A DNA stretch of 32,000 bases from Methanopyrus kandleri AV19 (lineage in GTDB: Archaea; JAADCQ01; Methanopyri; Methanopyrales; Methanopyraceae), in assembly GCF_000007185.1 (NCBI RefSeq), contig NC_003551.1, forward strand, positions 240,001-272,000, read 5' to 3'. The position numbers were made by a program, and so were the translations under genes. Below the pieces are notes generated by a model, which was given only the letters and a program-made list of their open reading frames with translations, did not search any database and was not told the origin of the DNA. Shown one piece after another: positions 1 to 32,000 of the stretch. The first letter of the stretch is position 1, and the number at the start of each line of letters is the position of its first letter.

Positions 1-974
1 TTCAGCCTGATTTCCTCCGGCTCCTGGTCGAAGTCTATCGCCGGCGGGTCCTGTGGGCACGCCTCCTCGCACAGGCCGCACTGGATGCAGTGCTCCATGT
101 CGATCGTGTACACCAACGGCATCGCCTGCGGGAACGGCACGTAGATCGCCTTCCTGGTGCCGATTCCCAGATCGAACTCGTTGGGCACCTCGATCGGACA
201 GACCTCGGCGCAGACTCCGCAGCCCGTGCACGCGTCCTCGTCCACGTACCGCGGCTTCTTCTCGATCGTTACCTCGAAGTTACCGATGTAGCCGTCCACG
301 TCCTTGACCTCGGCGTAAGTGATCATCTCGATGTTCGGGTGGTTACCCACCTGCACCATCTTCGGAGCCAGGATTCACATGGCGCAGTCGTCGGTCGGGA
401 ACGTCTTCGCCAGCCGTGCCATGTTGCCTCCGATCGTCGGCTCCTTCTCCACCAGGTACACCTTGAAGCCCTGATCCGCGAGGTCCAGGGCCGCCTGGAT
501 CCCGGCGATACCACCACCGATGATGAGAACGCTGTTCTCGACCTCCACCTCCTTCGTCGGCACGTCCTCGAGCCGCTTAGCACGCTCCACTGCCGCCCGA
601 ATTAGGTCCTTGGCCTTCTCCGTGGCCTTCTCCGGCTCCTGCATGTGCACGAACGAGCAGTGCTCTCGGATGTTTACCATCTCCATGTAGTATGGCGACA
701 ATCCGGCCTCCTTGACGCAGTTCCTGAACGTGTTCTCGTGGATCTTCGGCGTACAAGCTGCCACGACTACTCGGTCGAGGTCGTGTTCCTTGATGGCTTC
801 CTGGATGATCTCCTGACCCGGATCGGCGCAGAAGAACGGGTAATCCGTCGCGTACACGACGCCGGGCAGTTTCTTGGCGTACTCAACGACCTCTTCGACG
901 TCGACGGACGCCTTGATGTTCACACCGCAGTGGCACACGAACACGCCTATCCTGACGTCGTCCTTGTCGCCCAC
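1..974 (-). CDS. hdrA: Heterodisulfide reductase subunit A, selenocysteine-type isoform (N-terminal ~323 codons; gene continues past the left window edge). In-frame TGA at 375..377 read as Sec
   Basis: GTG start 972..974 preceded by GGGGGTGAG. N-terminus has VCHCGVNI and the FAD motif [16 protein letters not shown]. After the TGA the same frame stays open to base 3 and encodes [48 protein letters not shown], colinear with the paralog at 13054..15024. Confidence 0.9.
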
Positions 975-6908: not shown

Positions 6909-7038
6909 CCCCGACTCAACCCATGCGATAGGTATTCGGATTTGTTCCCTACAATTCTCAATGGGTATAAGGTCAGTTAATGGTCATATTTAACCACGAA
7001 CTCCATTAGTGTAATGCAGGAATTCGATTTAATAATAA

Positions 7039-8334
7039 GTGAGAAAGTGTCGAGCCGAGGGGATCTTGTTGGATATCAGAGAGATTTGGAAAGAGCTCGG
7101 AATCGACCTAGAGCGGCATGATGAGTTGCTCGAAGCCCTGCCGGAGGTGTACGAAGAGATCTTCCTGAGTCAGGAAAACCGTCCCGAGCGTATGTCCTAC
7201 TTCGACGAGGTAGTCGCCGATATCCACGGCGCACGAGTCCGGGAGCTGTACGAGATGAGACAGGAGGGTAAACCGATCCTAGGGACGTTCTGCGTCTACG
7301 TGCCGGAGGAGATCGTCCTCGCCGCGGGCGGTGTTTGCGTAGGGTTATGTGGCGGAGCGGAGTTCCCGATCCCGGACGCCGAAAAGTACCTCCCACGCGA
7401 CCTGTGCCCGTTGATCAAATCGTCCTTCGGCTTCCTGGTATCCAGACTGTGCCCTTACTGCCAAGTCGCGACGGTAATCGTCGGCGAGAACACTTGCGAC
7501 GGCAAGAAGAAGATGTACGAGATAATGTCAGAACACAAGGATGTCTACGTGATGGAAATGCCGCAGGTGAAAGATGAAGAGGGTCTCGAGTACTGGCACG
7601 AGCAACTGATTAAATTCAAGGAGTTCGTAGAGGAACTATCCGGGAACGAAATCACCTATGAGTCATTATTAGATGCTATAGAACGTGTGAACGCCAAGCG
7701 GGAAGCCTTTAGAAAGTTATACGAGCTCAGGAAGCACGACCCAGCACCTATAAGCGGACGTGACGCGAACTTGATAGCCCAGATAGCGTTCTACGATGAT
7801 GTAGATAGATTCACAGAGAAGGTAAACGAACTCAACGAAGAGCTCGAAAAACGGGTGGAAGAAGGCGAAGGTGTCGCCGAGGAAGCACCGAGAATTCTCG
7901 TAGCCGGCACGCCGATGCCGATTCCACACTGGAAGCTGCTTTACGTCGTGGAGTCCTGCGGCGCGGTGGTAGTTTGTGAGGAGTCGTGCACGGGCACCAG
8001 GTACTTTGAACGGGAGGTCAGCACAGAAGGAGACGACGTTGAAGATCTTATTAAGAATATTGCGGAGGCATACATGGAAACGAAATGTGCTATCTTCACA
8101 CCGAACGATGAAAGAGTTAAAGATATTATTAAGAAATACAAAGAGTGGAACTGTGATGGGGTGATTTTGTATAACCTTAAATTCTGTCAACCGTACGCTG
8201 TGGAACACTCAAAGATCGAAAGTAGGCTGAGAGAAGAAGGAATCCCTGCACTAAAACTTGAATCCGACTACAGCGAGGAGGACGTGGAACAACTGAAAAC
8301 TAGGATCGAGACGTTCTTGGAGTCGATCGCCTAG
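7039..8334 (+). CDS. 2-hydroxyacyl-CoA dehydratase / benzoyl-CoA reductase D-component family protein (possibly double-cubane-cluster type)
   Basis: 431 aa, Cys-rich (LCPLIKSS, CPYCQ..ENTCDGKKKMYE, CEESCTGTRYF, KFCQPY), typical of the HgdB/BcrC-like family. The true start may be an internal TTG a few codons in. Confidence 0.75.
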   Translation: MRKCRAEGILLDIREIWKELGIDLERHDELLEALPEVYEEIFLSQENRPERMSYFDEVVADIHGARVRELYEMRQEGKPILGTFCVYVPEEIVLAAGGVCVGLCGGAEFPIPDAEKYLPRDLCPLIKSSFGFLVSRLCPYCQVATVIVGENTCDGKKKMYEIMSEHKDVYVMEMPQVKDEEGLEYWHEQLIKFKEFVEELSGNEITYESLLDAIERVNAKREAFRKLYELRKHDPAPISGRDANLIAQIAFYDDVDRFTEKVNELNEELEKRVEEGEGVAEEAPRILVAGTPMPIPHWKLLYVVESCGAVVVCEESCTGTRYFEREVSTEGDDVEDLIKNIAEAYMETKCAIFTPNDERVKDIIKKYKEWNCDGVILYNLKFCQPYAVEHSKIESRLREEGIPALKLESDYSEEDVEQLKTRIETFLESIA

Positions 8335-8341
8335 GGCCCGC

Positions 8342-9646
8342 TCACACCATCTCCTCGACCTTTTCTATGACCATTTCGAGGAATTCTACGTCGTTGAGCA
8401 TGCTTTCGGGTGGTTCGACGACCTTGCGCATCCTGATGGGTACTGAGTCCATTCGGTAGGCGGTGCCTTCCCATTCGATGCCGGCGATGGTTACGGGCAC
8501 GTACAGGTCGGCGAGTTCGGCGGTCGGCGTCCAGTGCGGGTCCACGCACACGAGCGGGATCCTAGCCATGTGCTCCACAGCCTTCCGCGGGAAGTGCGCA
8601 CCCGGATCACTGGCGATTACGAAGGCGGCGTCCACTTCTCCCCTGATCAGTACGTCCACCGCGGAGAACTCGCCTGGGTTGTACCGCGGGTACCCACGGC
8701 TGAAGTCCACGGCGAACGGGTAGCCCGTAGTCCACGTGAGCACCTCGTTGAAGCCGGTCACGTTGTAGTGACCTCGCATCATGATCAGAGTCCACTTCGC
8801 GTACTCGTTCAGATCTCGGATCAAGCAGATCGCGTTGTCGATGTTCCGATGACGACCCCGGGACATCGTGATGCCCATGCCCCAGAACAGTGTGCCGAAG
8901 CTGGCCTCCTTGATCAGGTCAGCGACCTCGTGCACGGCTTCCACCGGAATTCCCGCCACCTCCTCGCGCTCGATCTCGATCCCGTGAACAGCCGCCCGGA
9001 GCGCGCTGATCAGCTCATAGTCCTCGTTGGGTCTAACCTGCAGGTGGACGTCCGCTAGCTCGGCCGTAGCGGTCCTCCGCGGGTCCACGACGATGATAGT
9101 ACGATCCTCACGACCCTTCGGTCGGAAGAAGCCGCGGGTGAAGGCGGTGTAACGGCTCATGTGCCGCGGGTGGGCGTGCATAGGGTTGCAACCCCAGTAG
9201 ATGATGACGTCCGCTCGATTCTTCACTTCACCCAATGTACAGCTAGGAACACCGGCGTCTTGCAATCCAAGTGTTGACGGTCCATGACACACTGAAGCGG
9301 TATTATCTATCACAGCTCCAACTTTTTCTGCAATCTCTATCCCAACTTCATGTGCTTCACATAGCGTTGAAGACCAGCCATACATCAGAGGCCATTTCGC
9401 CTCAACAAGTATTCTTGCCGTCTCTTCTGCGGCGTCTTCGTAGTCGATTTTCTTCCATTCTCCGTTCTCTTTGATCATCGGCTCGGTGTGACGATGATCC
9501 TCCTGCGCCGTCAAGAACTTCGCAGCACCGATCCTACAAGCATGCCGTACTTCCACGATCTCACCGTCCTCCACGACCACCTCTAGATCATCACACAGCG
9601 TACCACAGAACGGACAGACCACATCCTTGATCACTTTACGACCCAA
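8342..9646 (-). CDS. fwdB: Formylmethanofuran dehydrogenase subunit B, cysteine-type (fwcB-like)
   Basis: 434 aa. N-terminal CPFCGTLCDD cluster motif. Active site NTASVCHGPS with Cys120 (TGT, 9287..9289) at the position held by Sec in Sec-type FwdB/FdhH. No other fwd subunits are adjacent. Confidence 0.9.
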   Translation of the reverse strand: MGRKVIKDVVCPFCGTLCDDLEVVVEDGEIVEVRHACRIGAAKFLTAQEDHRHTEPMIKENGEWKKIDYEDAAEETARILVEAKWPLMYGWSSTLCEAHEVGIEIAEKVGAVIDNTASVCHGPSTLGLQDAGVPSCTLGEVKNRADVIIYWGCNPMHAHPRHMSRYTAFTRGFFRPKGREDRTIIVVDPRRTATAELADVHLQVRPNEDYELISALRAAVHGIEIEREEVAGIPVEAVHEVADLIKEASFGTLFWGMGITMSRGRHRNIDNAICLIRDLNEYAKWTLIMMRGHYNVTGFNEVLTWTTGYPFAVDFSRGYPRYNPGEFSAVDVLIRGEVDAAFVIASDPGAHFPRKAVEHMARIPLVCVDPHWTPTAELADLYVPVTIAGIEWEGTAYRMDSVPIRMRKVVEPPESMLNDVEFLEMVIEKVEEMV

Positions 9647-9688
9647 TATGACCCCCGTAAACGCCGTGATCGTCTCAGCTTTTGAAAG

Positions 9689-9697
9689 TTATTAATC
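9689..9697 (-). promoter_or_regulatory. TATA-like box (ATTAATAAC on the minus strand) upstream of fwdB
   Basis: AT-rich element about 45 nt upstream of the TTG start, with a GGGGGT ribosome-binding site between. Implies fwdB has its own promoter. Confidence 0.35.
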
Positions 9698-9748
9698 CCG
9701 GAGTTCAATGGTTATTCGTGTTCATAAAGGGCGCAACAAGCCCAATAT

Positions 9749-10504
9749 TCATTTTTCTAATACCCATAAAGCAGCCCCAAATGCTCCGGCTACGTGGGCT
9801 TCATTAGGTACGTTTATCCCCATCTCCAGCCTGTCTGAGAGGAGCTCGGCGAAGACCCGACAGCGTGCCATGCCGCCGACCAGCACCACCTCGGGCTCCG
9901 GCGACACCTTGTCGATCATGGTGGCGACGCGCTCGGCCACGGAGTCGAGGACGCCCAGCAGGATCCTTTCGACGTCGATCCCGCGGTTCACCAGCGAGAT
10001 CACCTCCGTCTCCGCGAAGACCGCGCACATCGAGTTGATCTTCACGGGATCGTCCGCGCCGCTCGCGTGCTCGTCGACCTCCGACATCTCGATCCCGAGC
10101 CGCCGGCACACGTTCTCGACGAACCTCCCGGTACCGGCCGCACACTTGTCGTTCACCTGGAAGTCCACGACCTTGCCGTCCTCCACTTTCATCACCTTGG
10201 TATCCTGACCGCCCACGTCTATCACCGTCCTGGCACCTTCGACCAGCTGGGAGGCACCTAGGGCGACCGCAGGAAGCTCGGGCACGGTCTCATCGAACTC
10301 GTCGCTCAGAGCCTCCCTACCGTATCCCGTGACGGCCGTGACGTCGAACTCGTCGATGCCCGCGCCTAGCTCATCTAGGGCACGCCGTAGCACTTTCTTC
10401 ACGGGACCTGTCGACTCCACCACGGTATGGTCCTCGAGCGAGCCGTCCTCCACGATCGCACACTTCAGGTGGGAAGATCCCGCGTCCACGCCGAGGACCC
10501 GCAC
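9749..10504 (-). CDS. BadF/BadG/BcrA/BcrD-type ATPase (activase of 2-hydroxyacyl-CoA dehydratase-like enzymes, HgdC-like)
   Basis: 251 aa. MRVLGVDAGSSHLK is an ASKHA phosphate-1 motif; also VIDVGGQDTKV, KCAAGTGRF (cluster Cys) and VVLVGGMAR. Confidence 0.85.
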   Translation of the reverse strand: MRVLGVDAGSSHLKCAIVEDGSLEDHTVVESTGPVKKVLRRALDELGAGIDEFDVTAVTGYGREALSDEFDETVPELPAVALGASQLVEGARTVIDVGGQDTKVMKVEDGKVVDFQVNDKCAAGTGRFVENVCRRLGIEMSEVDEHASGADDPVKINSMCAVFAETEVISLVNRGIDVERILLGVLDSVAERVATMIDKVSPEPEVVLVGGMARCRVFAELLSDRLEMGINVPNEAHVAGAFGAALWVLEK

Positions 10505-13053: not shown

Positions 13054-15024
13054 CTAAGCGGGGTCCCTGAAGGCCCCCTCGATCTGCTTGTACAACTGCT
13101 CGGTCTTGAAGTGGTTCTGCTCCATGGCACCGCTCGGGCACGCCGCCGCGCAGGTCCCGCATCCCTTGCACAAAGCGGCCGTGACTTCGGCCACGAGCTT
13201 CCCGTCCTTCTCGACGAGTTCTATGGCACCGTACGGACAGAGTTCCACGCAGGTACCACAACCGCCGCAGATCTCCTCGTCCACCTCCGATACTATGGGC
13301 TCTACGGCCACCTCACCGGCCGCCAATGCCGTGGCGGCGCGAGCCGCGGCGGCAGAACCCTGGGCGACCGAGGAGGGTATGTCCTTCGGACCTTGACACG
13401 CTCCGGCCAGGAAGATACCGTCGATCGCCGTGTCCACGGGCCGCAACTTCGGATGTGCTTCCATGAAGAAACCGTCCGGCGAACGTGAAATACTGAGGAC
13501 CTCCTGGATGACGTCGGCCGAGTCCCGCGGCACCATACCTACGGACAACACCACCAAGTCGTACTCCCTTTCGACCACGTCGCCGAGCAGCGTATCCTCG
13601 GCACGCACGATGAGGTTCTTGGTCTCCGGGTCCTCGACTATCTCCGCGGGCCGGCCGCGGATGAACCGGATGCCGTACTGCTTCTGCGAGCGTTCGTAGT
13701 ACTCCTCGTAACCCTTACCGAACGCCCGCACGTCCATGTAGTAGATATCGATCTGTGTCTCCGGGTACTTCTCCCGGATCAGCTGCGCCAACTTCATCGC
13801 GTACATGCAGCAAACGTTGGAGCAGTACGGATTGGTCCTGTGCGGGTCACGTGAGCCAACGCACTGGATGAATGCAATACGTTTCGGTTTCTTTCCATCA
13901 CTGGGCCTCACCACCTTGCCACCGGTGGGTCCCGAGGCGTTGATGAGCCTCTCCAGCTCTATCGACGTGATCACGTTGTCGTAGACGCCGTACCCGTACT
14001 CCTCGCGCTCGGTCGGGTCGCACGTGTCGTATCCGATGGCGCAGATGATAGCACCGACCTCTTCCTCGACGATCTCGGGCTCCTGATCGAAGTCTATCGC
14101 GTCGGCGTCGCATACCTCTTCGCAGAGACCGCATCGGATGCAGTGCTCCTCGTCGATCGTGAACACCGACGGGACCGCCTGCGGGAACGGCTTGTAGATG
14201 GCCTTCCTCATCCCCAGGCCCTCGTCGAACTCGTTGGGCACCTCGATCGGGCAGACCTCCGCGCACGCGCCGCAGCCCGTGCACGCGTCCTCGTCCACGT
14301 ACCGCGGCTTCTTCTCGATCTTCACCGTGAAGTTGCCCACGTACCCGTCCACCTCGACGACCTCGGCGTAGGTGTACATCTTGATGTTGGGATGCTTGGA
14401 CACGTCCACCATCTTCGGTGCCAAGATGCAGATGGAGCAGTCGTTCGTGGGGAACGTCTTGTCCAGCTGGGCCATCCTGCCCCCGATGGACGGCTCCTTC
14501 TCGACCAGGATGACCTCGAAGCCCATGTCCGCGAGGTCCAGGGCCGCCTGAATCCCGGAGACTCCGCCCCCGATGACCAGGGCGCGGTCGGTCACGTCCA
14601 CCTTGATGGTCTCGAGGGACTCGAGCAGCCGGGCCTTGGCCACCGCCATGCGGACGAGGTCCTTAGCTTTCTCCGTGGCCCTGGCCGGATCGTCCATGTG
14701 AACCCATGAGCAGTGCTCCCTGATGTTCGCCATCTCGAAGCAGTAGGGGTTCAACCCGGCCTCCTCGACGCACCGTCGGAACGTGGGCTCATGTAGCCTG
14801 GGCGAACAGGCCGCCACGACGACACGGTTCAGATCGTACTTCTCGATGTCGCGTTGAATGATCTCTTGACCCGGGTCGGAGCACACGTACTTGTAATCGC
14901 GCGCCACGACCACGTTCTTCAGCGTCTTGGCGAACTCGGCCACTTCCTTGACGTCGACGACGCCGGCGATGTTCACGCCGCAGTGGCACACGTAGACGCC
15001 GATGCGCGGCTCTTCCTCCGCCAA
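13054..15024 (-). CDS. hdrA: Heterodisulfide reductase subunit A, cysteine-type isoform (full length)
   Basis: 656 aa. [22 protein letters not shown], four ferredoxin CxxCxxCxxxCP motifs. Cys199 (TGC, 14428..14430) aligns with the TGA of the left-edge paralog. Confidence 0.95.
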
Positions 15025-16479: not shown

Positions 16480-17390
16480 TCCCTATCCACCCTGAACGGC
16501 ATCAGCGAGCCGGCGAGCGTGAACCGGTAGAACCAGCCTACCACGTCAGGGACGGACTCCACGAGCTCGGAAGGGTCGACGTCGTCCACATCGGCCCGGA
16601 AGATCGAGGCGATCGCGGACATCATCTCCGCACCTTGGTCGGGGATTTCTCCGGCCGGTCCCGCACAACCCGCACACGGTACCCCGGCTTCGGGACAGCG
16701 TGCCCCGCACCCCGCCCGTGTAGCGGGTCCCATGCACGGGTAACCCTGCTCCAGCAAGCACCGGTCCGGATCGGGCTCACCCTCGACCGGGCGGCGGATC
16801 TCGTGGATCACGGTCTCTTCCTTCTTCCGAGGACACTCCTCGCAGAGGTTCGTCGTCGAGAGCTCGGGTTCGCGTCCGTCGAGGATCGCTGTGACCGCGT
16901 CCGCGATCAGGTCGGGCTCCGGGGGGCAGCCGGGTAACTCGTAATCGACGTCGATGACATCGGAGAGCGGGCGAACGCGCCACGTTAACTCTGGGACGTC
17001 TTCGGACGGTATCACACCGTCCTCGTTCTCCGTGCTGGCGGTTTCCACGTAGACGGTCCTCAGGAGCTCCTCGTTGGAGTACAGGTTGGCCAGTCCCGGG
17101 ACGCCGCCGTAGCAGGCGCAGGTACCCACCGCCACGACGATCTCCGCACGCTCCCTGAACTCCTCCGCTACCTCTACGTTCTCCTCGTTCCTGATACCAC
17201 CCTCGATCAGGACCACGTCCACATCCTCGGGGATCTCCTTGGTATCCATGAGCACGGGGCAGTGAACCAGCTCGGCGTCGCCCAGGAGGTCCAGAAGCCG
17301 CTCGTGGAGGTCCAACACCGAGACGTGGCAACCGGAGCAACAGCACAACCACGTCGTGGCGATCTTCACCAAACGCACCACCCCCTTCAC
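16476..17390 (-). CDS. mvhG: F420-non-reducing hydrogenase small subunit
   Basis: 304 aa. [27 protein letters not shown] and the C-terminal Cys cluster are typical of MvhG/VhuG. It has 4-nt overlaps with both neighbours. Confidence 0.9.
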
Positions 17391-17812
17391 AGCCTTTTCA
17401 ACCTCTCACGGAGTTCCAATGGTCCCAGCTCTAACAACGTCTGATGAAACTCAGTCATAACCTCAGCGAACTTCTCACCCTCCGAAGCTGAAATCCACTC
17501 GTATCTGAAACGCTCAGGTTCAATGCCTATTTCGGCTAAAAATTTCTTCAATAACTCGGCCCTTCTCCACCACTTGTAATTACCTGATTGGTAATGACAA
17601 TCTCCCAAGTGACATCCTCCTACGAACACTCCATCAGCACCTTCTCTAAACGCTTTTAAAACAAGAGATGGTTCTATTCGTCCCGAGCACATCACCCGAA
17701 TAATTCGAGTACTTGGAGGATATTGCATCCTACCAACGCCAGCGGTATCCGCTCCTCCGTACGAGCACCAATTGCAGCAGAAAGCTATGATTTTAGGTTT
17801 CCACTCTCCCAT
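17387..17812 (-). CDS. mvhD: F420-non-reducing hydrogenase iron-sulfur subunit D (all-Cys form)
   Basis: [42 protein letters not shown] is typical of MvhD. I place the start at ATG 17810..17812 (GGAGGG ribosome-binding site) rather than the TTG at 17866. Confidence 0.9.
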
Positions 17813-17852
17813 AGACGCCCTCCGGAGCTCCTTTGTCCACATAAGAAAAAGC

Positions 17853-17861
17853 TTATTATTT
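17853..17861 (-). promoter_or_regulatory. TATA-like box (AAATAATAA on the minus strand) upstream of mvhD
   Basis: About 45 nt upstream of the preferred mvhD ATG. It lies inside the N-terminal extension of the longest ORF, which supports the shorter start. Confidence 0.35.
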
Positions 17862-18053
17862 GACAAATTTCAGCGCTATTCCCCGAACTTAAACCCCATA
17901 AGTTACCTCCTACCGATCAATTTGCGTGATCATAAGTGACATCGATCTCCATTGAAAGCGTTAGAGCAACTGTCCTCGTACGTGGCCGAAAACCGCGCCG
18001 GGAATCGGTGGGACTTTAAACTCGCAGGGATACGGGTGGGGAGGGGCCGTACC

Positions 18054-19379
18054 GTGACGTTCTTTCGACACATCCTGCTGGCGTCCTTGGCGTGTCTCAC
18101 GCTTCCCATCGCGGCAACATGTGTGAATGAAGAATTCGAATCGAAGGTCGAAAGTCTGATACAGAATCCCGACTTCCAGGGTACGAAGGAGATCACGCTG
18201 TACGCATCGGGTTCGTACGTGATGACGGGCCGTATCAAGGTGTCGTACAGAGGACCGGAGGAAGTTGAGCCCGTCGAGGTGGATAAGCTCATCAACGGGC
18301 TGAAGGAACTGCGTGAGGATCTAGATCCGTTGGCCGGTCAAAACGAACCCATCAAAGATCTGCTCGGCGCACTGAAAAAGTTCGACGACACCTCGGACGT
18401 TCTGGAGAAGTTGAAGGAGAAGACGCAGGGGTTGAAGCTCGCAGCGTGTGAGATCGATGTGGATCTATGGTATGTCGGGGAAACTGGTACCCCACCGTCG
18501 GACCTACCCCAGATCCTCCAACAACTGCGGACCGAGGGGGAACTTCATCTCAGCTACAAGATACCTTACCCGGAAGCACACGTATACGTCGTGGGGAGTG
18601 TGGAGCTCCTCGATCGGGCGCTGAACCTACCCATACGAGCGGTGTTCTCGTACGATTATCCCAACGACGGCTCCGGTGTGAAGGTTTCAGTGGATACCGA
18701 GCATCGCAAGTTCACGATAGAAACGACCGATAATATCTACAACCTGATAGTGGTCGAGCTCACGCTCCACGGTGGACTCCAAGAGGTCGAGAAACTGGCG
18801 GACCTCAGCGTCGAGTCCTCGGAGGACCTACAGAAGCTGCTCGAGAATACCGAGGTGAAGGTGGAATGCTACCCACGAGGAGGTCGGACCGCCGAGATCA
18901 ACGGATTACCCCTGATGGTCGATGAAGGGGCCGCGATAGTGGTCTACGCGGTCGGGAGCAACCCCATCAACTCCATCGTCGCGTCTAAGATCGCGGAGCT
19001 CATGGGCAAGAACCCGCTGGTGGTGACTCTAGGAAACGCCGACCTCCAGGTGGGAACCGACGGCAAGACGTTGGTCATCAAGGGATCCGCACCGGGTGGT
19101 CTGGTGGTGATCTACGGGCCGGCCGGACCGGATAACACGCTGGACGTCACCTCTCGAGTAGGCACGTTGCAGGTCGCCAGAGCCCTCGGAGCCCAGGTAC
19201 CGCCGTTAGTTTCTCTGTTCGGATGGATACTGGGACCGCTACTGGGGTCGATCACGACCACTTACACACCCGCGTTCAGCGGCGAGCTACGGATGTCACC
19301 CCGCGGTATCGGGATGGCTACACCCGCGGTGATCGCCGCCCTACTCCTCGGCGTCCACGGACGCCGCCGTTCTAAGTAG
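18054..19379 (+). CDS. Hypothetical cell-surface protein (N-terminal signal peptide, C-terminal TM anchor with basic tail)
   Basis: ORF 17952..19379. Preferred GTG start at 18054 after GGGGAGGGG. Signal-like FFRHILLASLACLTLPIAATC. The C-terminus PAVIAALLLGVHGRRRSK resembles an archaeal C-terminal anchor. Confidence 0.6.
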   Translation: MTFFRHILLASLACLTLPIAATCVNEEFESKVESLIQNPDFQGTKEITLYASGSYVMTGRIKVSYRGPEEVEPVEVDKLINGLKELREDLDPLAGQNEPIKDLLGALKKFDDTSDVLEKLKEKTQGLKLAACEIDVDLWYVGETGTPPSDLPQILQQLRTEGELHLSYKIPYPEAHVYVVGSVELLDRALNLPIRAVFSYDYPNDGSGVKVSVDTEHRKFTIETTDNIYNLIVVELTLHGGLQEVEKLADLSVESSEDLQKLLENTEVKVECYPRGGRTAEINGLPLMVDEGAAIVVYAVGSNPINSIVASKIAELMGKNPLVVTLGNADLQVGTDGKTLVIKGSAPGGLVVIYGPAGPDNTLDVTSRVGTLQVARALGAQVPPLVSLFGWILGPLLGSITTTYTPAFSGELRMSPRGIGMATPAVIAALLLGVHGRRRSK

Positions 19380-25404: not shown

Positions 25405-26217
25405 CTACAGCCTCTCCTGGACGGCACCGATGAGCTCCCGGTACGCTTCTTCAAGCTTTCGCGGATCGGACCTTCGTGTCCTATCGAGCGGTGGGAGCCT
25501 GACCACCTCCAAGGGCTCCAGGACCTCGAGCAGGCTCAGCGTCACCGCCTCCGGGCCGGCGAGCGTCTCGGCAGCCCGGGCGTAGTCCCTGAGATCGTAC
25601 ACCAGGGCCGTGCCGGGACCGACGGCGACGGCCACGCCGTCGTACTTGAGGACGCCGGGCCAGGGAACGGCCAGGTTGTTCAGGCTCTCCACCAGTACGG
25701 GACCCTCCTTACGGACTCGACTCCAGGCCCGGTCGATCGTCCGACGCAGCTCTTCGGGAGCGGGTTCCTCGCGGACTTCCCTCACCTCGCACTCACGGGC
25801 CATTTCCATCGTCTCGTCGGGCACGTACCTGAGTTCGGTCCCCTCCGTGTACAGGAACACGGTTTCGTCCAACCGGTCCATCAGGACGTACGCGTCGGTC
25901 TGGGCGGAGAAATACCTCAATGAGACGTCGGACTTCACCGCAGTCCCCACGTCGGGAGACGTCCACACGCGGTGAACGGGGTTGAGCGTGATCAACGGCA
26001 GATCAACCTCGGCGACCTTCGCCAGCTTGAGCACGTCACGACTGACGGGCAGCCCGAGCTCCACGCATCTGCGCGTATGGTCGTAGTGCAACCATACGTT
26101 ATGACCGGACCTGGGTTTGAACGGTACGAGGTCGAGCGCAGAGACCAGAGGCAACGCGGCGGTCGTCTTACCGGAGTCGGTTTCTAGAAGGCCGACGACC
26201 AGCACGACGTGCGTCAC
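25405..26217 (-). CDS. Predicted P-loop NTPase-like protein (dethiobiotin-synthetase/CobQ-like N-terminus), function unknown
   Basis: 270 aa. N-terminal VVLVVGLLETDSGKTT is a Walker-A-like loop. The remainder is unassigned. Confidence 0.5.
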   Translation of the reverse strand: MTHVVLVVGLLETDSGKTTAALPLVSALDLVPFKPRSGHNVWLHYDHTRRCVELGLPVSRDVLKLAKVAEVDLPLITLNPVHRVWTSPDVGTAVKSDVSLRYFSAQTDAYVLMDRLDETVFLYTEGTELRYVPDETMEMARECEVREVREEPAPEELRRTIDRAWSRVRKEGPVLVESLNNLAVPWPGVLKYDGVAVAVGPGTALVYDLRDYARAAETLAGPEAVTLSLLEVLEPLEVVRLPPLDRTRRSDPRKLEEAYRELIGAVQERL

Positions 26218-26245
26218 GGGCCCTGCCCCCGCGGGGTGAGAGGAG

Positions 26246-26977
26246 ATGTTGGAGTGGCGTCCCGAGCCCGGTTATGACCCTTTAGAGACAGCGGAACGTG
26301 TGCGTGGGTGGGTGTGTGAAGGAAGACGACGAAAGTACTACCGGTTCCGGGAGACCCGCTTCTACGGTGGATGCGCCACGGCCGACGCCGTGGGGTGCAA
26401 CCTCGACTGTGCTTACTGTTACGTTAATTACCCGCGGAGGCATCCCTGGGACCGACGCTGGAAGTTTCACCGGCCAATCGACGTTGTGGAGCGCCTGAAG
26501 AACATGGGGGGCGATGTCGTGCGTGTTTCCGGCTGCGAACCGACGCTGTGTAAGGAGCACATCCTCGAGCTCATCGAGCTCTGCGGGCGGGAACTCCCCG
26601 ACCGGAAGTTCGTCCTGGAGACGAACGGCACGATCCTGGGAGCCGACCGTTCGTTCGTGAGGGAACTAGGGAATCACGAACACGTTCACGTACGCGTGTG
26701 TCTGAAGGGGTACGATCCTCAATCGTTCGCGCGAATCACCAACGCGAACCCGGACGGGTTCGATCTACAGCTCCGGTGCTTAAGATATCTTTTTAAAGAG
26801 GGAATATCCTTCCACCCGGCCATACCCCGTCTGTTCCGCCCGGAAGATATCGACAAGCTAGCCGGAGTACTCTCGGACATCGGAGTCCCACCCTCATCAC
26901 TCGAAGTGGAGCCGATCAGGGTCTATGACCACGTCCGTAGGGAGTTGAGACGGCGGGGGCTAACGGTTGTGCGGTGA
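26246..26977 (+). CDS. Radical SAM protein (uncharacterised subfamily)
   Basis: 243 aa. GCNLDCAYCYV is a CxxxCxxC motif, preceded by YYRFRETRFYGGCATAD. GAGGAG ribosome-binding site. The 3' end overlaps the next gene by 11 nt. Confidence 0.85.
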   Translation: MLEWRPEPGYDPLETAERVRGWVCEGRRRKYYRFRETRFYGGCATADAVGCNLDCAYCYVNYPRRHPWDRRWKFHRPIDVVERLKNMGGDVVRVSGCEPTLCKEHILELIELCGRELPDRKFVLETNGTILGADRSFVRELGNHEHVHVRVCLKGYDPQSFARITNANPDGFDLQLRCLRYLFKEGISFHPAIPRLFRPEDIDKLAGVLSDIGVPPSSLEVEPIRVYDHVRRELRRRGLTVVR

Positions 26978-28979
26978 TCCAGGGCTTCTCACGCTGGTCT
27001 TGCTCATCCTACTACTAGCGGTGGCCTCTTTGCCCGCGGGTTCTGTGGTTTTGGCCTCGGCCTTAGCCCCCGTGGCGGTGGTCGGCGGACTAGCACTCGA
27101 GTACGGCCTCGTAGATCCGAGGACCGTGCCCGTGTTCGGACTACTCGCGGTCCCCGGACTCATCCTAGGACTCCGAACAGCCCGAAAATACCCCAAACAA
27201 CACCTACGCCACAGGCTAATCATAGCGGTAATTATCACAGTGACTTTTTTTCTTTCAAATTTAACAATATACGTGTTTAAGGGAACAGTATCTTTCGTAG
27301 CAGGCGGAGACGTACCCAGGCATGCTTCTCTAGCGTTGTCTTTCCTCACTACCGGTAAGCCTCCCGTTTTCTACGATACGTTGAGGCGGGAGTATCGTCC
27401 CGTTCATTACCCCTCGGGACTCGGACACGCGGCGATCACGGAGTCGATCGTGTCGTTGTTATTCCATCCGAAAGATCTACGGGAAGCGGCGAGCTGGCGA
27501 GTTCAGTACGGTTCAACAATTATTGAACTCGTTGAATACCATGTGAGCACAGCCATGATAGCATCAGCCATCATCGACATCATCCTCCTTACGCTCGGAC
27601 GATTGCCTATTTTAGTAGCTACACTTGTAGCATGCGCAATATATTTGACGTATCCTGGACCGGTGCCGTTCTTTCAGTCACTAGCTATGCTATCAGCATC
27701 GATCGTAGCTATAATTCTTAATTCACGATGGATTTCAACATTTTTAATACTAAGTGCTGTAGTAATTCATTTCTATAGTGTGGTGGTCATGAGCTTACTT
27801 ATTCCAGTTCTGATCCAAACTAGAAAACAATCCACTATATCGTTACTCCTTGGTATGGCAACTGGAATCATTATACAATTCCCTTACGTACACTGGAGTG
27901 CGGCAGTGCATTTCCCACGTTATCCAGCCCACCCGAATCACTTACCACCAGATCGGGAGTTAGGGCCGATAGTGTACATAATACAATTTATGTTTACAGC
28001 ATTTGCTGCATATCCACCGTTCATTTTCCCCAATGCTAGTGATATGCTATATACTATCCCATTTATAGCCGCTGTAATGTTAATACTTATCAGAATTCGG
28101 AAATTATTACCGCAAGATCTCAAAATAATATGGATCATGTATATAACCACTATTGTTATCTTAGGAGTTACCTTCGGGCGATTCATTGGAAAACGATTTT
28201 TATTTACTGCACCATTGTTAACGACTTTAACTTTAGGTTTTGCAGCAGCAAATTACCACTTATTAGCGCTCAGTATACTAATTAGTTATTGCGCTTTAAC
28301 TACTGATTGGTGGTACATATATTTCATTAATACTCCACCAATCGATGTATTAGAAAAACATTGGAAACTATTCTATAATTCATTCTGCAAGGGTGAGACT
28401 ATCGCTACAGTATCAATAGGCTTACTGCCATTCACATCCACATGGAAACCACAAAAGGTAGCTCAGGTAGTTAGAACGTTCCCAGAACCAGGTTTGCCCA
28501 TATTGGTTACTGAAGAGGAAAACAACCTCACCCTAAGACTTCTACCGTTAACTCAAGTCAAAGGCAAATACATCGTGGAGAAGTTACCACCAACGAAACG
28601 TGTCTGGTCAGTCGACGACCGGGCAGGCTCATTCAGACGGAACGTCCTAGTAGCAGCGGAACGGTACGACTCACACGTCCTGACGTATGTGGCAATAATG
28701 AGCTACGGCTCGGTACCCACCGTGTTAGTCATTAAGGGGAAGACGTGGGGAGCCTCCATGGCCTTCATGACACTCATGGAGCCTACCGATGATTTATCAG
28801 TGTTTATCAGGACGCGACATGTCCCCAACGGGTATTTAGTCAGAATCTCAGATTGGCAAGGTGTGAGGGTTATGAAGATAACGATCTCCGGGGCCAGATG
28901 GGTTGGTGATAAACTGGTGTTCCACGGATCTCTGAGGGACCTCATCGCGAACATACGAGTCACCGGCGACTTGGTTTAA
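26967..28979 (+). CDS. Large polytopic membrane protein, paralog A (>=12 predicted TM helices plus a ~190-aa C-terminal soluble domain)
   Basis: 670 aa, TTG start. Motifs shared with paralog B: PPVFYDTLR.EYRPVHYPSGLGH, PFFQSLAML, PYVHWS..FPRYPAHPNHLPPDR, LLPFT.TWKP, VVRTFPEP. Confidence 0.8.
   Translation: MCGDPGLLTLVLLILLLAVASLPAGSVVLASALAPVAVVGGLALEYGLVDPRTVPVFGLLAVPGLILGLRTARKYPKQHLRHRLIIAVIITVTFFLSNLTIYVFKGTVSFVAGGDVPRHASLALSFLTTGKPPVFYDTLRREYRPVHYPSGLGHAAITESIVSLLFHPKDLREAASWRVQYGSTIIELVEYHVSTAMIASAIIDIILLTLGRLPILVATLVACAIYLTYPGPVPFFQSLAMLSASIVAIILNSRWISTFLILSAVVIHFYSVVVMSLLIPVLIQTRKQSTISLLLGMATGIIIQFPYVHWSAAVHFPRYPAHPNHLPPDRELGPIVYIIQFMFTAFAAYPPFIFPNASDMLYTIPFIAAVMLILIRIRKLLPQDLKIIWIMYITTIVILGVTFGRFIGKRFLFTAPLLTTLTLGFAAANYHLLALSILISYCALTTDWWYIYFINTPPIDVLEKHWKLFYNSFCKGETIATVSIGLLPFTSTWKPQKVAQVVRTFPEPGLPILVTEEENNLTLRLLPLTQVKGKYIVEKLPPTKRVWSVDDRAGSFRRNVLVAAERYDSHVLTYVAIMSYGSVPTVLVIKGKTWGASMAFMTLMEPTDDLSVFIRTRHVPNGYLVRISDWQGVRVMKITISGARWVGDKLVFHGSLRDLIANIRVTGDLV
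27016..27208 (+). repeat. 5' conserved block, copy 1 (193 bp; partner 29060..29252)
   Basis: By-eye alignment at offset 2044 gives 5 mismatches in 193 bp. The first 97 nt are identical. Confidence 0.9.
28873..28972 (+). repeat. 3' conserved block, copy 1 (100 bp, identical to 30947..31046)
   Basis: By-eye alignment at offset 2074 gives 100/100 identity. The block ends 7 nt before each stop codon. Confidence 0.9.
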
Positions 28980-29013
28980 GAGTGCGTGTGAACGTGCCGT
29001 AGGGGGCCAGTTA

Positions 29014-31053
29014 TTGAGTGACCCCGGGCTTTTCATGCTGATCTTACTAGTCCTGTTATTAGCGGTGGCCTCTTTGCCCGCGGGTTCTGTGGTTTTGGCC
29101 TCGGCCTTAGCCCCCGTGGCGGTGGTCGGCGGACTAGCACTCGAGTACGGCCTCGTGGACCCGAGGATCGTACCCGCGTTCGGACTACTCGCGGTCCCCG
29201 GACTCATCCTAGGACTCCGAACAGCCCGAAAATACCCCAAACAACACCTACGTCATAGACTAACTATAGCAGTAATCCTGCTGACGGCATATCTCTCAGT
29301 GGACTTGACCTTATACGCTTTCAAAGGGAATATCGGCGCTACTATGGGTGATCCTTCAAGACATGCCTCTTACGCGCTAACGTTGTTAACCGCGGGTGAG
29401 CCCCCGGTTTTCTACGATACACTGAGACAGGAGTACCGTCCAGTCCATTATCCGTCCGGTCTCGGTCACATCGCGATTACGGAGTCGATCGTATCGTGCC
29501 TGTACCATCCGAAGGATGTACAGGAGGCCGCAAGCTGGCAGGTTCAATTCGGATCAGTATTCCTTGAACTACTTGAACATCACTTGGACGCGGCGTTGAT
29601 AACGTCCTCGATAGTCGATCTTCTGTTGATCGCACGCGGACGGTTACCAATCTATATAATACCCCCTCTAGCATACATAACATACCTAACATGCACCGCA
29701 CAATATGCAGAATTCATACCGTTCTTCCAATCACTAGCAATGCTTGCCGCCTCGGCAGTGGCACTTATACTCAATTCACGATTGCTATCAGGGCTTCTCG
29801 CACTAGGAGCCATAGCAATCCATGCCTATGGTGTTATAATTGTAACAACGTTAATTCTAGCTTTACTATGGGCTAAGAAAACCAGAATTACAACTGTAAC
29901 CCCAATACTTTTAGGAACTATAATCGGAGCTATTATGCAATATCCCTATGTACACTGGAGCGTAATGACATATTTCCCACGCTATCCGGCCCACCCTAAT
30001 CATCTACCGCCAGATCGTATACTTAGCCCAGTAGCGTGTCTATTACAGTTCTTTTTCACAGCATTTGCAGCGTATCCCATGATTCTATTCCCTACAACTA
30101 ATAGCTTACCTTATGTGTTGCCATTTACAGTAATCAATGTTTTAATCATTATTAAAGTCCGTAAATTACTTCCCTCTGTTCTTAGAGTAATGTGGATAAC
30201 ATGTATAGTTACAATTCTAGCATTAGCTGTGGTTTCCGGAAGTATAGTCGGAGGACGTCTTTTAGTTGTAGTTCCATTACTAACAGCTATGAGTTTAGTT
30301 CTACCAGCAGCAAATAGAAACTTATTAGCACTAGGAGCATTATTTGGATATTGTGCGCTAACTATTCATTGGTGGCTTGCAATCATAATACATGGAAATG
30401 AAGGTATTAGTACACTACCGGTTTGGGTTCTAAAAGAACATTGGAATATATTCTATAAATCCCTTTGTAATAAAGACGTTATAGCCACTCTACCCGAAGG
30501 CTTGCTCCCATTTACATGTACATGGAAACCACGTGAAGTTGCTTACGTAGTTCGAACGTTCCCTGAACCTTACACCTCTATACTGTTGACAGCCAAGGAG
30601 GGTAGTGAGATATTACTATACGCACCTCCGGTGCGAGCTGAAAGAGGATACATTGTAAAGAAGTTGCCACCTCCGGGGCGCGTCTGGGTGGCCGGTAACC
30701 GCGCTGGGTCACTCCGATGTAACGTCCTGATCGGAGCGGAACGGTACAACCGTCAGGTGATAATACACGTTAACGTGGTTAACTACAGTTGGGTACCTAT
30801 ACCCACAATAAACATCAAAGGAAAGCTCCGGAAGAGGGCGATAGTGCTCTCAACACCGAAATCGAGCACGTTACCGGCTATCAATGTCCACCGTATTCCG
30901 GAGGGTTTCCTTGTCAGGATCTCGTATTCGCACGGTGTGAGAGTTGTGAAGATAACGATCTCCGGGGCCAGATGGGTTGGTGATAAACTGGTGTTCCACG
31001 GATCTCTGAGGGACCTCATCGCGAACATACGAGTCACCGGCGACTTAGTCTGA
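29014..31053 (+). CDS. Large polytopic membrane protein, paralog B (tandem duplicate of 26967..28979)
   Basis: 679 aa, TTG start after AGGGGG (alternative ATG at 29035). Colinear with paralog A throughout. Confidence 0.8.
   Translation: MSDPGLFMLILLVLLLAVASLPAGSVVLASALAPVAVVGGLALEYGLVDPRIVPAFGLLAVPGLILGLRTARKYPKQHLRHRLTIAVILLTAYLSVDLTLYAFKGNIGATMGDPSRHASYALTLLTAGEPPVFYDTLRQEYRPVHYPSGLGHIAITESIVSCLYHPKDVQEAASWQVQFGSVFLELLEHHLDAALITSSIVDLLLIARGRLPIYIIPPLAYITYLTCTAQYAEFIPFFQSLAMLAASAVALILNSRLLSGLLALGAIAIHAYGVIIVTTLILALLWAKKTRITTVTPILLGTIIGAIMQYPYVHWSVMTYFPRYPAHPNHLPPDRILSPVACLLQFFFTAFAAYPMILFPTTNSLPYVLPFTVINVLIIIKVRKLLPSVLRVMWITCIVTILALAVVSGSIVGGRLLVVVPLLTAMSLVLPAANRNLLALGALFGYCALTIHWWLAIIIHGNEGISTLPVWVLKEHWNIFYKSLCNKDVIATLPEGLLPFTCTWKPREVAYVVRTFPEPYTSILLTAKEGSEILLYAPPVRAERGYIVKKLPPPGRVWVAGNRAGSLRCNVLIGAERYNRQVIIHVNVVNYSWVPIPTINIKGKLRKRAIVLSTPKSSTLPAINVHRIPEGFLVRISYSHGVRVVKITISGARWVGDKLVFHGSLRDLIANIRVTGDLV
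29060..29252 (+). repeat. 5' conserved block, copy 2 (partner 27016..27208)
   Basis: Same alignment as copy 1. Confidence 0.9.
30947..31046 (+). repeat. 3' conserved block, copy 2 (identical to 28873..28972)
   Basis: Same alignment as copy 1. Confidence 0.9.
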
Positions 31054-31206
31054 CGGTTGAGAGGGGAACTAGGTCGGGTAAGGCCCCTGTTCGTCATCGC
31101 GTAGCTCCGACGAAACCTCCCTCCTCATCCCCTCGAGTTCGTTCGGGGTGGAACGGTCGGGGAAGCCCAGGTACAGGTCATCAGGGACTCCCCCGGTACG
31201 GCCTCC

Positions 31207-32000
31207 TCATCCCGTGAGCCGATCGAGTGCCTCTTCGAAGGCTTCCTCGGTGCGTTCCAGGTCCGTCTCGGTGTGCGCGATGGACAGGAACCAGGCCTCG
31301 TAATTCGAGGCCGCGATCCATACGCCGTGCTCTAACAACTCCCTGTGGAACCGCTTGAACGCATCGTGGTCGGCCGAGTTTACGTCGGCGTAATCTCGGA
31401 CCTCTTCGATCCCGAAGTACACCTGGAACATGGACTCCACTCGGTTCACGACTCCTTCGATGCCACGGTCCTCGAGGCCGTCCTCCAGGGCGGAGGCCAA
31501 CCGCTCCGCCTTCGATGAGAGTTCGTCGTAGGGTCGTTCACGTTCGAGTACCTCGAGCGTCACCAGGCCCGCCGTAGCCGACACCGGGTTGCCGTTGAAC
31601 GTGCCGGCCTGGTATACTTTGCCCTCGGGTGCAACGCGCGACATGTACTCCTCCGGGCCTCCGAAGGCCCCTATCGGGAGCCCTCCTCCCAGGATCTTAC
31701 CCAGGCAGACGAGGTCCGCGTCGATACCGTAGTACTCCTGGGCACCACCCAACTCCAGTCGGAATCCCGTGATCACCTCGTCGAAGATCAGCAACCGCTC
31801 GGTCCCGTCGCAGTACTCGCGAAGTACTTTCAGGAACTCCTCGTCGGGGGGCACACAGCCGGCGTTACCCAGCACGGGTTCCACGATCACCGCACCGATC
31901 TCCTCGTCGAACCTCTCCACGGTCTCCACGAAAGCTTCGACGTCGTTGAACGGGCAGACGAGGGTGTTCTCCGCCACCGACTCCGGGATACCCGGTGAGT
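31207..32000 (-). CDS. hemL: Glutamate-1-semialdehyde 2,1-aminomutase (C-terminal ~264 codons; N-terminus lies beyond the right window edge)
   Basis: VIVEPVLGNAGCVPP, LLIFDEVITGFRL, LGKILGGGLPIGAFGG are class III aminotransferase/HemL motifs. The frame stays open upstream of the GTG at 31977 to the window end (..SPGIPESVAENTLV). Confidence 0.9.
   Translation of the reverse strand, partial: SPGIPESVAENTLVCPFNDVEAFVETVERFDEEIGAVIVEPVLGNAGCVPPDEEFLKVLREYCDGTERLLIFDEVITGFRLELGGAQEYYGIDADLVCLGKILGGGLPIGAFGGPEEYMSRVAPEGKVYQAGTFNGNPVSATAGLVTLEVLERERPYDELSSKAERLASALEDGLEDRGIEGVVNRVESMFQVYFGIEEVRDYADVNSADHDAFKRFHRELLEHGVWIAASNYEAWFLSIAHTETDLERTEEAFEEALDRLTG

What the first reader, a model, noticed from the sequence alone, without database searches (positions are those of the whole stretch)
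26967..31053. Tandem membrane-protein paralogs with homogenised termini and diverged cores
Two adjacent 670/679-aa genes are colinear, but identity is very uneven. The 5' block (27016..27208 vs 29060..29252) is 188/193 identical, with a 97-nt perfect run. The last 100 nt before the final two sense codons (28873..28972 vs 30947..31046) are 100% identical. The ~1.6-kb interiors have diverged to roughly 50-60% amino-acid identity, apart from short motif islands (PPVFYDTLR.EYRPVHYPSGLGH, PYVHWS..FPRYPAHPNHLPPDR, VVRTFPEP). This is the signature of ongoing gene conversion or recombination anchored at conserved ends. It resembles a cassette-like arrangement that allows exchange of variable cores. 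The >=12-TM plus C-terminal-domain architecture is reminiscent of GT-C glycosyltransferases or polymerases, but I could not identify catalytic motifs.
Basis: seen in the sequence. Interest (0 to 1): 0.75.

Follow-up and report, generated by a model that had tools for sequence, protein, structure and literature searches.

The report
Tandem membrane paralogs with converted ends
Two neighbouring copies of a membrane-protein gene found only in the heat-loving archaeon Methanopyrus keep near-identical ends by copying DNA between each other, while their middles diverged long ago. This is a clear but ordinary case of partial gene conversion, not a cassette-swapping system.

Summary
The window is Methanopyrus kandleri AV19. 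The genes are AAM01495.1 and AAM01496.1, annotated 'predicted membrane protein, family MK-41'.

- **Identity:** the 5' blocks are 188/193 identical and the 3' blocks 100/100. Synonymous divergence is 0.08-0.09 in the blocks and about 1.9 (saturated) in the cores.
- **Conversion:** in eight related loci from other Methanopyrales assemblies, the cores form two old lineages. A groups with an A-type gene of a distant Methanopyrus (bootstrap 1.0), and B groups with the single-copy genes. Both end blocks instead group A with B (0.99 and 0.82). AV19 B's 3' block is closer to AV19 A than to B of another M. kandleri strain. This is segmental gene conversion between ancient tandem paralogs.
- **No core exchange:** I found no further copies among predicted proteins and no swapping of cores.
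- **No function assigned:** GT-C membership has no support. There are no Pfam, NCBIfam or PDB sequence hits, and the transmembrane part could not be modelled.
- **Family behaviour:** it is genus-restricted, has GC3 of 0.40 against 0.70-0.81 in neighbouring genes, evolves fast and is often lost or broken. A deeper Methanopyrales lineage with the same synteny lacks it, so it is probably an ancient insertion.

Interest is modest.

The parts
26246..26977 (+). Radical SAM gene (243 aa). Its last 11 nt overlap the TTG start of copy A. It is the conserved upstream neighbour of the MK-41 locus in every Methanopyrus genome examined.
   Evidence: Pfam Radical_SAM 1.2e-18. Generic NCBIfam hits only. Same overlap in L001, L002, L005 and L006. 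Intact even where MK-41 is degraded (L008) or absent (L009).
26967..28979 (+). Copy A: the A-type MK-41 membrane protein gene (670 aa), identical to AAM01495.1.
   Evidence: 100% identity to P0001. The core groups with the A-type gene of L007 at bootstrap 1.0.
27016..27208 (+). 5' converted block in copy A, covering codons about 17-81 (the N-terminal hydrophobic segments up to the K/R-rich loop).
   Evidence: 188/193 identical to 29060-29252, with a 97-nt perfect run at 27016-27112. dS 0.09. A+B clade bootstrap 0.99, while A differs from A7 at 42/193 sites.
28873..28972 (+). 3' converted block in copy A, covering most of the last ~35 codons.
   Evidence: 100/100 identical to 30947-31046. dS 0.08 over codons 636-670. 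A+B clade bootstrap 0.82.
28980..29013 (+). 34-nt spacer between the copies, with a GGGGG run 7-11 nt before the TTG start of copy B. A similar run precedes copy A. The spacer is homologous to the A7-B7 spacer of L007.
   Evidence: Sequence read directly. Junction comparison.
29014..31053 (+). Copy B: the B-type MK-41 gene (679 aa), identical to AAM01496.1. It is the ortholog of the single-copy genes of SNP6, KOL6 and other Methanopyrus assemblies.
   Evidence: Cluster members P0002/P0005. The core tree places B with B4, L5, L6 and L1.
29060..29252 (+). 5' converted block in copy B.
   Evidence: Same as for 27016-27208. The contig of M. kandleri MAG L004 begins inside this block, at B coordinate 29126, consistent with a repeat-induced assembly break.
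30947..31046 (+). 3' converted block in copy B.
   Evidence: 100/100 identical to copy A. B against B4 differs at 14/107 sites here versus 75/1821 elsewhere, Fisher p = 2.6e-4.
31054..31076 (+). G-rich junction after copy B. It may be a remnant copy of the ancestral radical SAM 3' end. This is weak evidence.
   Evidence: In the outgroup L009 the radical SAM stop codon abuts TCGGGCAAGGCCCC directly. In AV19 the matching TCGGGTAAGGCCCC follows this 23-nt stretch.

Best explanation
Copies A and B are two ancient tandem paralogs of a Methanopyrus-specific polytopic membrane protein (family MK-41).

**What the cores show.** The cores separated before the sampled Methanopyrus lineages diverged and now evolve independently and vertically.

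**What the ends show.** The first ~65 codons after codon 16 and the last ~35 codons are repeatedly overwritten by non-reciprocal homologous recombination (gene conversion) between the two copies in the same chromosome.

**Inferred mechanism.**
- The ends are the most constrained parts of the protein, so they diverge slowly and stay similar enough to pair.
- Pairing lets conversion homogenise them, which keeps them pairable.
- The fast-evolving cores are too mismatched for heteroduplex extension, so tracts stop at sharp boundaries.

**Timing.** The 3' tract in AV19 (100/100 identical) was converted after AV19 split from another M. kandleri strain. The 5' tract (5 differences) is older.

**Wider history.**
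- The same direct repeats are natural substrates for deleting one copy. This fits the independent loss of the A-type copy in at least two, probably three, lineages.
- The locus looks like an old insertion between a radical SAM gene and hemL. It is dispensable, fast-evolving and AT-rich.

**Protein function.** It is not established. My low-confidence guess is an envelope-facing enzyme or transporter-like protein whose conserved loops face outwards.
For: **Shown**
1. Block identities and sharp boundaries.
2. Synonymous divergence of 0.08-0.09 in the blocks against 1.88 in the core. The same blocks diverge between species at dS 0.43-1.2.
3. Incongruent trees. The 5' block groups A+B (0.99), the core groups A+A7 (1.0) and puts B with B4/L5/L6/L1, and the 3' block groups A+B (0.82).
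4. Quartet site patterns: AA7|BL5 202, AB|A7L5 86, AL5|BA7 38. The AB pattern leads only within 27000-27199.
5. B against B4 differs at 13% of sites in the 3' block and 4% elsewhere (p = 2.6e-4). A against B differs at 3/107.
6. L007 also has a tandem arrangement: an A-type gene, then a 30-nt homologous spacer, then the start of a second copy.
7. In the flanking-gene tree L007 pairs with single-copy L008, and AV19 pairs with the single-copy SNP6/KOL6 clade. The tandem state therefore predates these splits.
8. Contigs of L004 and L007 end inside or at the 5' block, as expected if those genomes also carry a repeat there.
9. The deeper-branching L009 has the same synteny and no MK-41 gene.

**Inferred**
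- That mismatches block tract extension, and that losses arose by recombination between the repeats.
- Concerted evolution by recurrent conversion, including tandem duplicates in methanogens, is documented in PMC6053082.
Against: - The trees are NJ trees on p-distances from short blocks (193 and 107 nt). Core dS is saturated, so the relative ages of the splits are approximate.
- The comparison sequences are mostly MAGs. The frameshifts in A7 and the contig ends could be assembly artefacts. The partner copies (A of L004, B of L007) were not recovered, so homogenisation in those genomes is indirect.
- The direction of conversion could not be inferred.
- The first 49 nt of the single-copy genes look B-like rather than A-like. 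This does not fit a simple crossover within the 5' block as the route to deleting copy A.
- No genome-wide DNA search for extra block copies was possible. Both genome-contig scans returned nothing, not even the known locus.
Confidence: 0.85

Rival explanations
1. A recent tandem duplication in the M. kandleri lineage. The cores then diverged very fast under positive or relaxed selection, and the ends stayed the same through purifying selection alone.
For: The ends are also the best-conserved parts between species, at 75-84% nt identity against 45-70% in the cores. Core dN is high, for example 0.257 for B against L5 compared with 0.015-0.055 in flanking genes.
Against: - Synonymous sites are saturated in the core (pS 0.69) and nearly unchanged in the blocks (pS 0.08). 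Selection on the protein cannot produce this.
- An A-type ortholog exists in the distant L007 genome and groups with A at bootstrap 1.0.
- The blocks diverge at synonymous sites between species (pS 0.33-0.60), so they are not intrinsically frozen.
Confidence: 0.03
2. A cassette or allele-swapping system. The conserved ends serve as recombination anchors through which variable cores are exchanged, either between the two copies and silent cassettes or between strains by homologous recombination. The purpose would be to vary an exposed membrane protein.
For: - Conserved ends flank hypervariable, AT-rich cores.
- Core dS between AV19 and SNP6 is 1.32, against 0.34-0.44 in flanking genes. Between close strains the ratio is only about 0.65-2. 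That could mean occasional import of divergent alleles.
- The gene is often lost or broken, as contingency loci are.
Against: - Proteome-scale searches returned only MK-41-locus proteins, apart from one repeat-protein hit (P0020) judged spurious.
- No recombinase or invertase lies next to the locus; the neighbours are housekeeping genes.
- The B-type core tree matches the flanking-gene tree, and A pairs with A7.
- The B and B4 cores are colinear and 96% identical.
- No relatives were found in viral contigs, phage records or plasmids.
Confidence: 0.07
3. The identical blocks are held constant by a nucleotide-level function, such as an embedded RNA, a regulatory element or an antisense transcript, rather than by conversion.
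For: The 5' block is GC-rich (0.6-0.67) inside an AT-rich gene. Long antisense ORFs overlap both 5' blocks, at 26960-27349 and 28848-29240.
Against: - The same blocks differ by 16-25% between Methanopyrus lineages, so the nucleotide sequence is not tightly constrained.
- Rfam gives no credible hit in 26000-31500.
- The antisense ORFs are the expected shadow of GC-rich coding sequence.
Confidence: 0.03

Closest known systems
Concerted evolution of prokaryotic paralogs by recurrent gene conversion (for example tuf, amoA/B, and the methanogen mtrA tandem duplicates; PMC6053082)
   Same: Paralogs within one genome are more alike than orthologs between genomes. Homogenisation extends to synonymous sites. 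The copies are tandem, and the host is a methanogenic archaeon.
   Different: - Conversion here covers only the two termini, about 15% of the gene, while the cores remain two old lineages.
- The gene is a dispensable, genus-restricted orphan, not a core metabolic or complex subunit gene.
Family MK-41 of the M. kandleri AV19 genome annotation (AAM01495.1, AAM01496.1)
   Same: The two genes are these records exactly.
   Different: The annotation only names a two-member paralogous family of predicted membrane proteins. It says nothing of the mosaic identity, the A-type and B-type lineages, the losses or the insertion history.
GT-C glycosyltransferases and Wzy/WaaL-type polymerases and ligases
   Same: Large polytopic proteins with conserved charged and aromatic loop motifs and, in some families, a C-terminal soluble domain. 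Like wzx and wzy genes, this gene is AT-rich and very divergent between strains (the wzx/wzy comparison is from my own knowledge).
   Different: - No sequence match to any Pfam or NCBIfam family or to any solved chain.
- The main conserved acidic loop follows the fourth hydrophobic segment, not the first.
- The fold could not be tested.
- The locus is not in a glycan gene cluster.
Silent-cassette antigenic variation loci (pilE/pilS, vlsE)
   Same: Conserved flanks border variable cores, and gene conversion is the mechanism.
   Different: - There are only two copies, both complete ORFs with their own starts.
- Conversion homogenises the conserved ends rather than moving the variable cores.
- No silent cassettes were found.

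Membership tests
Segmental concerted evolution (gene conversion between paralogs) | Within the tract, paralogs in one genome are closer to each other than to their orthologs in other genomes. Outside the tract the reverse holds. | tested here: met
   5' block: A-B 5/193 against A-A7 42/193. Core: A-A7 0.33 against A-B 0.40 p-distance. Bootstrap 0.99, 1.0 and 0.82 for the three segments.
Segmental concerted evolution (gene conversion between paralogs) | Homogenisation includes synonymous sites. | tested here: met
   pS is 0.085 and 0.075 in the blocks against 0.689 in the core. Interspecies pS in the same blocks is 0.33-0.60.
Segmental concerted evolution (gene conversion between paralogs) | Evidence that the process is recurrent or recent rather than a single old event. 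| tested here: met
   The 3' block of AV19 B differs from B4 at 14/107 sites but from AV19 A at 3/107, so an event followed the strain split. The 5' block has 5 differences and is shared with B4, so it is older.
GT-C glycosyltransferase superfamily | Detectable sequence relationship to a GT-C family (PMT, PMT_2, STT3, ArnT-like and others) or to a solved GT-C chain. | tested here: not met
   No Pfam family for A and only sub-threshold noise for B. No NCBIfam hit. A family profile against all PDB chains gives 0 hits at E <= 10.
GT-C glycosyltransferase superfamily | GT-C fold of the transmembrane module. | tested here: inconclusive
GT-C glycosyltransferase superfamily | A catalytic acidic residue in the first extracytoplasmic loop. 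| tested here: inconclusive
   The invariant D/E residues sit in a ~100-aa acidic loop after the fourth hydrophobic segment, which is predicted to face outside by the K/R distribution. This comes from a crude hydropathy analysis only.
Silent-cassette variation system | Several partial or silent copies that share the conserved blocks. | tested here: not met
   Protein-level searches returned only MK-41-locus proteins, plus one repeat-protein hit judged spurious. No other copy occurs in the 32-kb window. A genome-wide DNA search was not possible.
Silent-cassette variation system | Variable cores are exchanged between copies or strains. | tested here: not met
   The cores track paralog type and genome phylogeny.
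MK-41 family (M. kandleri annotation) | Identity to the annotated members. | tested here: met
   A equals AAM01495.1/WP_011018650.1 and B equals AAM01496.1/WP_011018651.1.

The most novel reading that the evidence does not exclude
MK-41 may be a horizontally acquired, envelope-exposed membrane protein locus under diversifying pressure, for example from a virus or other extracellular interaction. In that reading the conserved, conversion-maintained ends also act as homology arms. Whole divergent cores would be imported from other Methanopyrus strains through them, and copies gained or lost. That would explain the 3-4-fold excess of synonymous divergence over flanking genes at deep but not shallow distances, the persistent AT-richness, and the repeated loss and inactivation.
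Probability: 0.1. Interest if true: 0.6.

Novelty: new member of a known kind. Interest (0 to 1): 0.35.

Why it matters
The locus gives a clean, well-bounded archaeal example of conversion confined to gene termini. Orthologs bracket the timing of the events. It also flags a genus-specific, fast-evolving, dispensable membrane protein locus in a hyperthermophilic methanogen whose function is unknown.

It does not reveal a new mechanism. The practical lessons are:
- The two genes should not be read as a recent duplication.
- Identical ends break short-read assemblies at this locus.
- Single-copy Methanopyrus genomes carry the B-type gene.

Tried and rejected
- **Remote homology.** Pfam, NCBIfam, PADLOC and PHROGs gave nothing for the two proteins, and a family profile found no PDB chain. 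An exhaustive HMM search of 1.84 billion representatives returned only Methanopyrus proteins, plus a repeat-protein hit (P0020) that I judged spurious.
- **Extra copies.** Two genome-contig scans and one metagenome scan found nothing, not even the known locus. Methanopyrus appears to be masked or absent there, so these results are uninformative. There were no relatives in viral contigs, plasmids or phage records.
- **GC-biased conversion as the cause of the GC-rich ends.** Rejected. Changes shared by A and B within the blocks are 3 S>W against 2 W>S, and single-copy genomes show the same GC3 pattern.
- **An embedded RNA.** There is no credible Rfam hit.
- **Functional coupling to the radical SAM gene.** That family is widespread and uncharacterised, and it stays intact where MK-41 is degraded or absent. 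Obligate coupling is therefore unlikely.
- **Bacterial promoter and terminator scan.** Not meaningful for an archaeon.
Full report
**Identity of the window and the genes.** ORF listing shows two adjacent same-strand ORFs, 26967-28979 (670 aa, copy A) and 29014-31053 (679 aa, copy B), both with TTG starts. They lie in a sharply AT-rich stretch, 44-50% GC against about 60-65% in the rest of the window. A search of 5.8 billion proteins found copy A at 100% identity as AAM01495.1/WP_011018650.1 of Methanopyrus kandleri. UniRef names it 'Predicted membrane protein, family MK-41'. Copy B is AAM01496.1. The neighbours are housekeeping genes: a LeuA-type synthase, a radical SAM protein whose stop codon overlaps the start of A by 11 nt, HemL-type aminotransferase, PheRS, HdrA/Mvh and PEP synthase.

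**Checking the observation.**
- The proteins are colinear and 57.7% identical.
- Block 27016-27208 against 29060-29252 has 5 mismatches in 193 nt, with a 97-nt perfect run. Block 28873-28972 against 30947-31046 is 100/100 identical. Mismatch density jumps abruptly at both inner boundaries.
- Third-position identity is 0.9-1.0 in the blocks and about 0.4 in the core.
- Nei-Gojobori pS is 0.085 (5' block), 0.075 (3' block) and 0.689 (core, dS 1.88).
- The blocks are not intrinsically invariant. Between Methanopyrus lineages their pS is 0.33-0.60. Scaled to that, the deficit between A and B has P of about 1e-6 and 2.5e-8.
Their third-position identity is ordinary at 0.43-0.5, so they reflect protein constraint, not conversion.

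**Related loci.** Exact-protein look-ups gave the same locus in other Methanopyrales assemblies.

| Locus | Source | State of MK-41 |
|---|---|---|
| L001 | Methanopyrus MAG | single copy, 681 aa |
| L002, L003 | MAG and Logan assembly | single copy, broken by an 11-nt tandem duplication ACGAGGGGCAG |
| L004 | M. kandleri MAG | contig begins inside the 5' block of a B-type gene, here called B4 |
| L005, L006 | strains SNP6 and KOL6, complete genomes | single copy, 674 aa |
| L007 | Methanopyrus MAG | A-type gene with frameshifts (A7), a 30-nt spacer homologous to the AV19 spacer, then the start of a second copy; the contig ends at the point where the 5' block begins in AV19 |
| L008 | Methanopyrus MAG | single copy, heavily degraded pseudogene |
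| L009 | deeper Methanopyrales lineage (70.5% GC, leuA 78% identical) | absent; same synteny, but only 126 nt separate the radical SAM gene and hemL |

**Conversion versus alternatives.** NJ trees with bootstrap differ by segment.
- In the 5' block A and B are sisters (0.99), and both differ from A7 at 41-42 of 193 sites.
- In the core A pairs with A7 (1.0). B pairs with B4 and then with SNP6/KOL6 and L001, which mirrors the flanking-gene tree.
- In the 3' block A and B are sisters again (0.82).
- Quartet site patterns agree: AA7|BL5 202, AB|A7L5 86 and AL5|BA7 38, with the AB pattern leading only within 27000-27199.
- AV19 B differs from its ortholog B4 at 14/107 sites in the 3' block and at 75/1821 elsewhere (p = 2.6e-4). 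It differs from AV19 A at 3/107.

At least one conversion event therefore followed the split of two M. kandleri strains. The 5' tract, with 5 differences that B4 shares, is older. A recent duplication with fast core divergence is excluded by the saturated synonymous divergence of the cores and by the A-type ortholog in L007.

**History of the locus.**
- In the flanking-gene tree L007 pairs with single-copy L008, and AV19 pairs with the single-copy SNP6/KOL6 clade. No rooting makes the tandem genomes a clade.
- The tandem A+B state is therefore old, and the A-type copy was lost at least twice and probably three times.
- The directly repeated end blocks are obvious substrates for such deletions. 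This is inference. The B-like first 49 nt of the single-copy genes do not fit a simple crossover within the 5' block.
- L009 lacks the gene and has a clean junction. Together with GC3 of 0.40 against 0.70-0.81 in neighbouring genes, this suggests an ancient insertion into the Methanopyrus ancestor.
- A G-rich 20-nt stretch after the stop codon of B may be a remnant of the ancestral radical SAM 3' end. That evidence is weak.

**How the family evolves.**
- For AV19 against SNP6, core dN is 0.257 and dS 1.32. Flanking genes give dN 0.015-0.055 and dS 0.34-0.44.
- The ratio dN/dS is about 0.2, so purifying selection still acts.
- Three of the sampled lineages carry frameshifted or degraded copies (L002/L003, L007, L008). 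The protein is dispensable.
- Between close strains, core dS is only about 0.65-2 times that of the flanks. I cannot fully explain the contrast with the deep comparisons.

**What the protein is.**
- No family library, PDB sequence search or exhaustive HMM search links it to anything outside Methanopyrus.
- AlphaFold2 with the eight available sequences gives about 20 helices up to residue 486 and a beta-rich C-terminal domain. Confidence is very low for the membrane part (pLDDT 38.7).
- The C-terminal domain modelled alone (pLDDT 62.6, pTM 0.65) matches nothing in PDB or BFVD.
- A crude hydropathy and K/R analysis places the two conserved loops on the outside. These are the ~100-aa acidic loop carrying PPVFYDTLRxEYRPVHYPSGLGH and the loop carrying PYVHWS..FPRYPAHPNHLPPDR.
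- GT-C membership is unsupported by sequence and untestable by fold here.

**Comparison with what is known.** Concerted evolution by recurrent conversion is well documented in prokaryotes, including tandem duplicates in methanogens (PMC6053082). The comparative paper on SNP6 and KOL6 contains none of the terms I searched for that would describe this locus, such as 'duplicat', 'membrane protein' or 'pseudogene' (PMC5504354). This case is a new example of a known process. Its notable features are that conversion is confined to both termini of an orphan membrane protein gene, and that orthologs bracket the events in time.

**Verdict.** Interest is modest at 0.35.

Noticed in passing
window 57-356 and 14110-14409: A 300-nt direct repeat at 82% identity links two HdrA-like genes. 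One is the 656-aa ORF at 13054-15024 (minus strand). The other is an ORF at the window start whose listed part, 375-974 (minus strand), lies just upstream of the repeat. This is a second paralog pair in the window that might also show segmental homogenisation.
   Followed up: no
L002 9660-11695 and L003 2327-4362: The single-copy MK-41 gene of this strain is split by an 11-nt tandem duplication (ACGAGGGGCAG twice) relative to SNP6. The duplication appears in both a MAG and a Logan assembly. It looks like a slipped-strand inactivation.
   Followed up: partly
L009 6733-6858: A deeper Methanopyrales lineage (70.5% GC) keeps the synteny from the radical SAM gene to hemL but has no MK-41 gene at all, only 126 nt between the two. 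This suggests MK-41 is an insertion specific to Methanopyrus in the narrow sense.
   Followed up: partly
window 27260-28840 against 29300-30900 (the cores): At sites where A7, L1 and L5 agree, A and B share 35 derived changes. Of these, 29 are GC-to-AT. That is more than I roughly estimated independent change would give. The cause could be parallel AT-ward drift at hot sites in the AV19 lineage or eroded old conversion patches, for example around 28200-28500.
   Followed up: partly
window 25405-26217 (minus strand): A 270-aa protein with no Pfam or NCBIfam hit is divergently paired with the radical SAM gene in every Methanopyrales locus seen, including the distant L011. This is a conserved uncharacterised gene pair.
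   Followed up: no
window 27245-27251: A T7 homopolymer lies in copy A just after the 5' converted block. It is the only run of 6 or more identical bases in either gene, and a possible slippage site.
   Followed up: no
window 7001-10000 and 17001-19000: Two further dips in GC, to 0.53-0.56. The second includes a 475-aa ORF (17952-19379) with no Pfam hit. These may be other lineage-specific genes.
   Followed up: no
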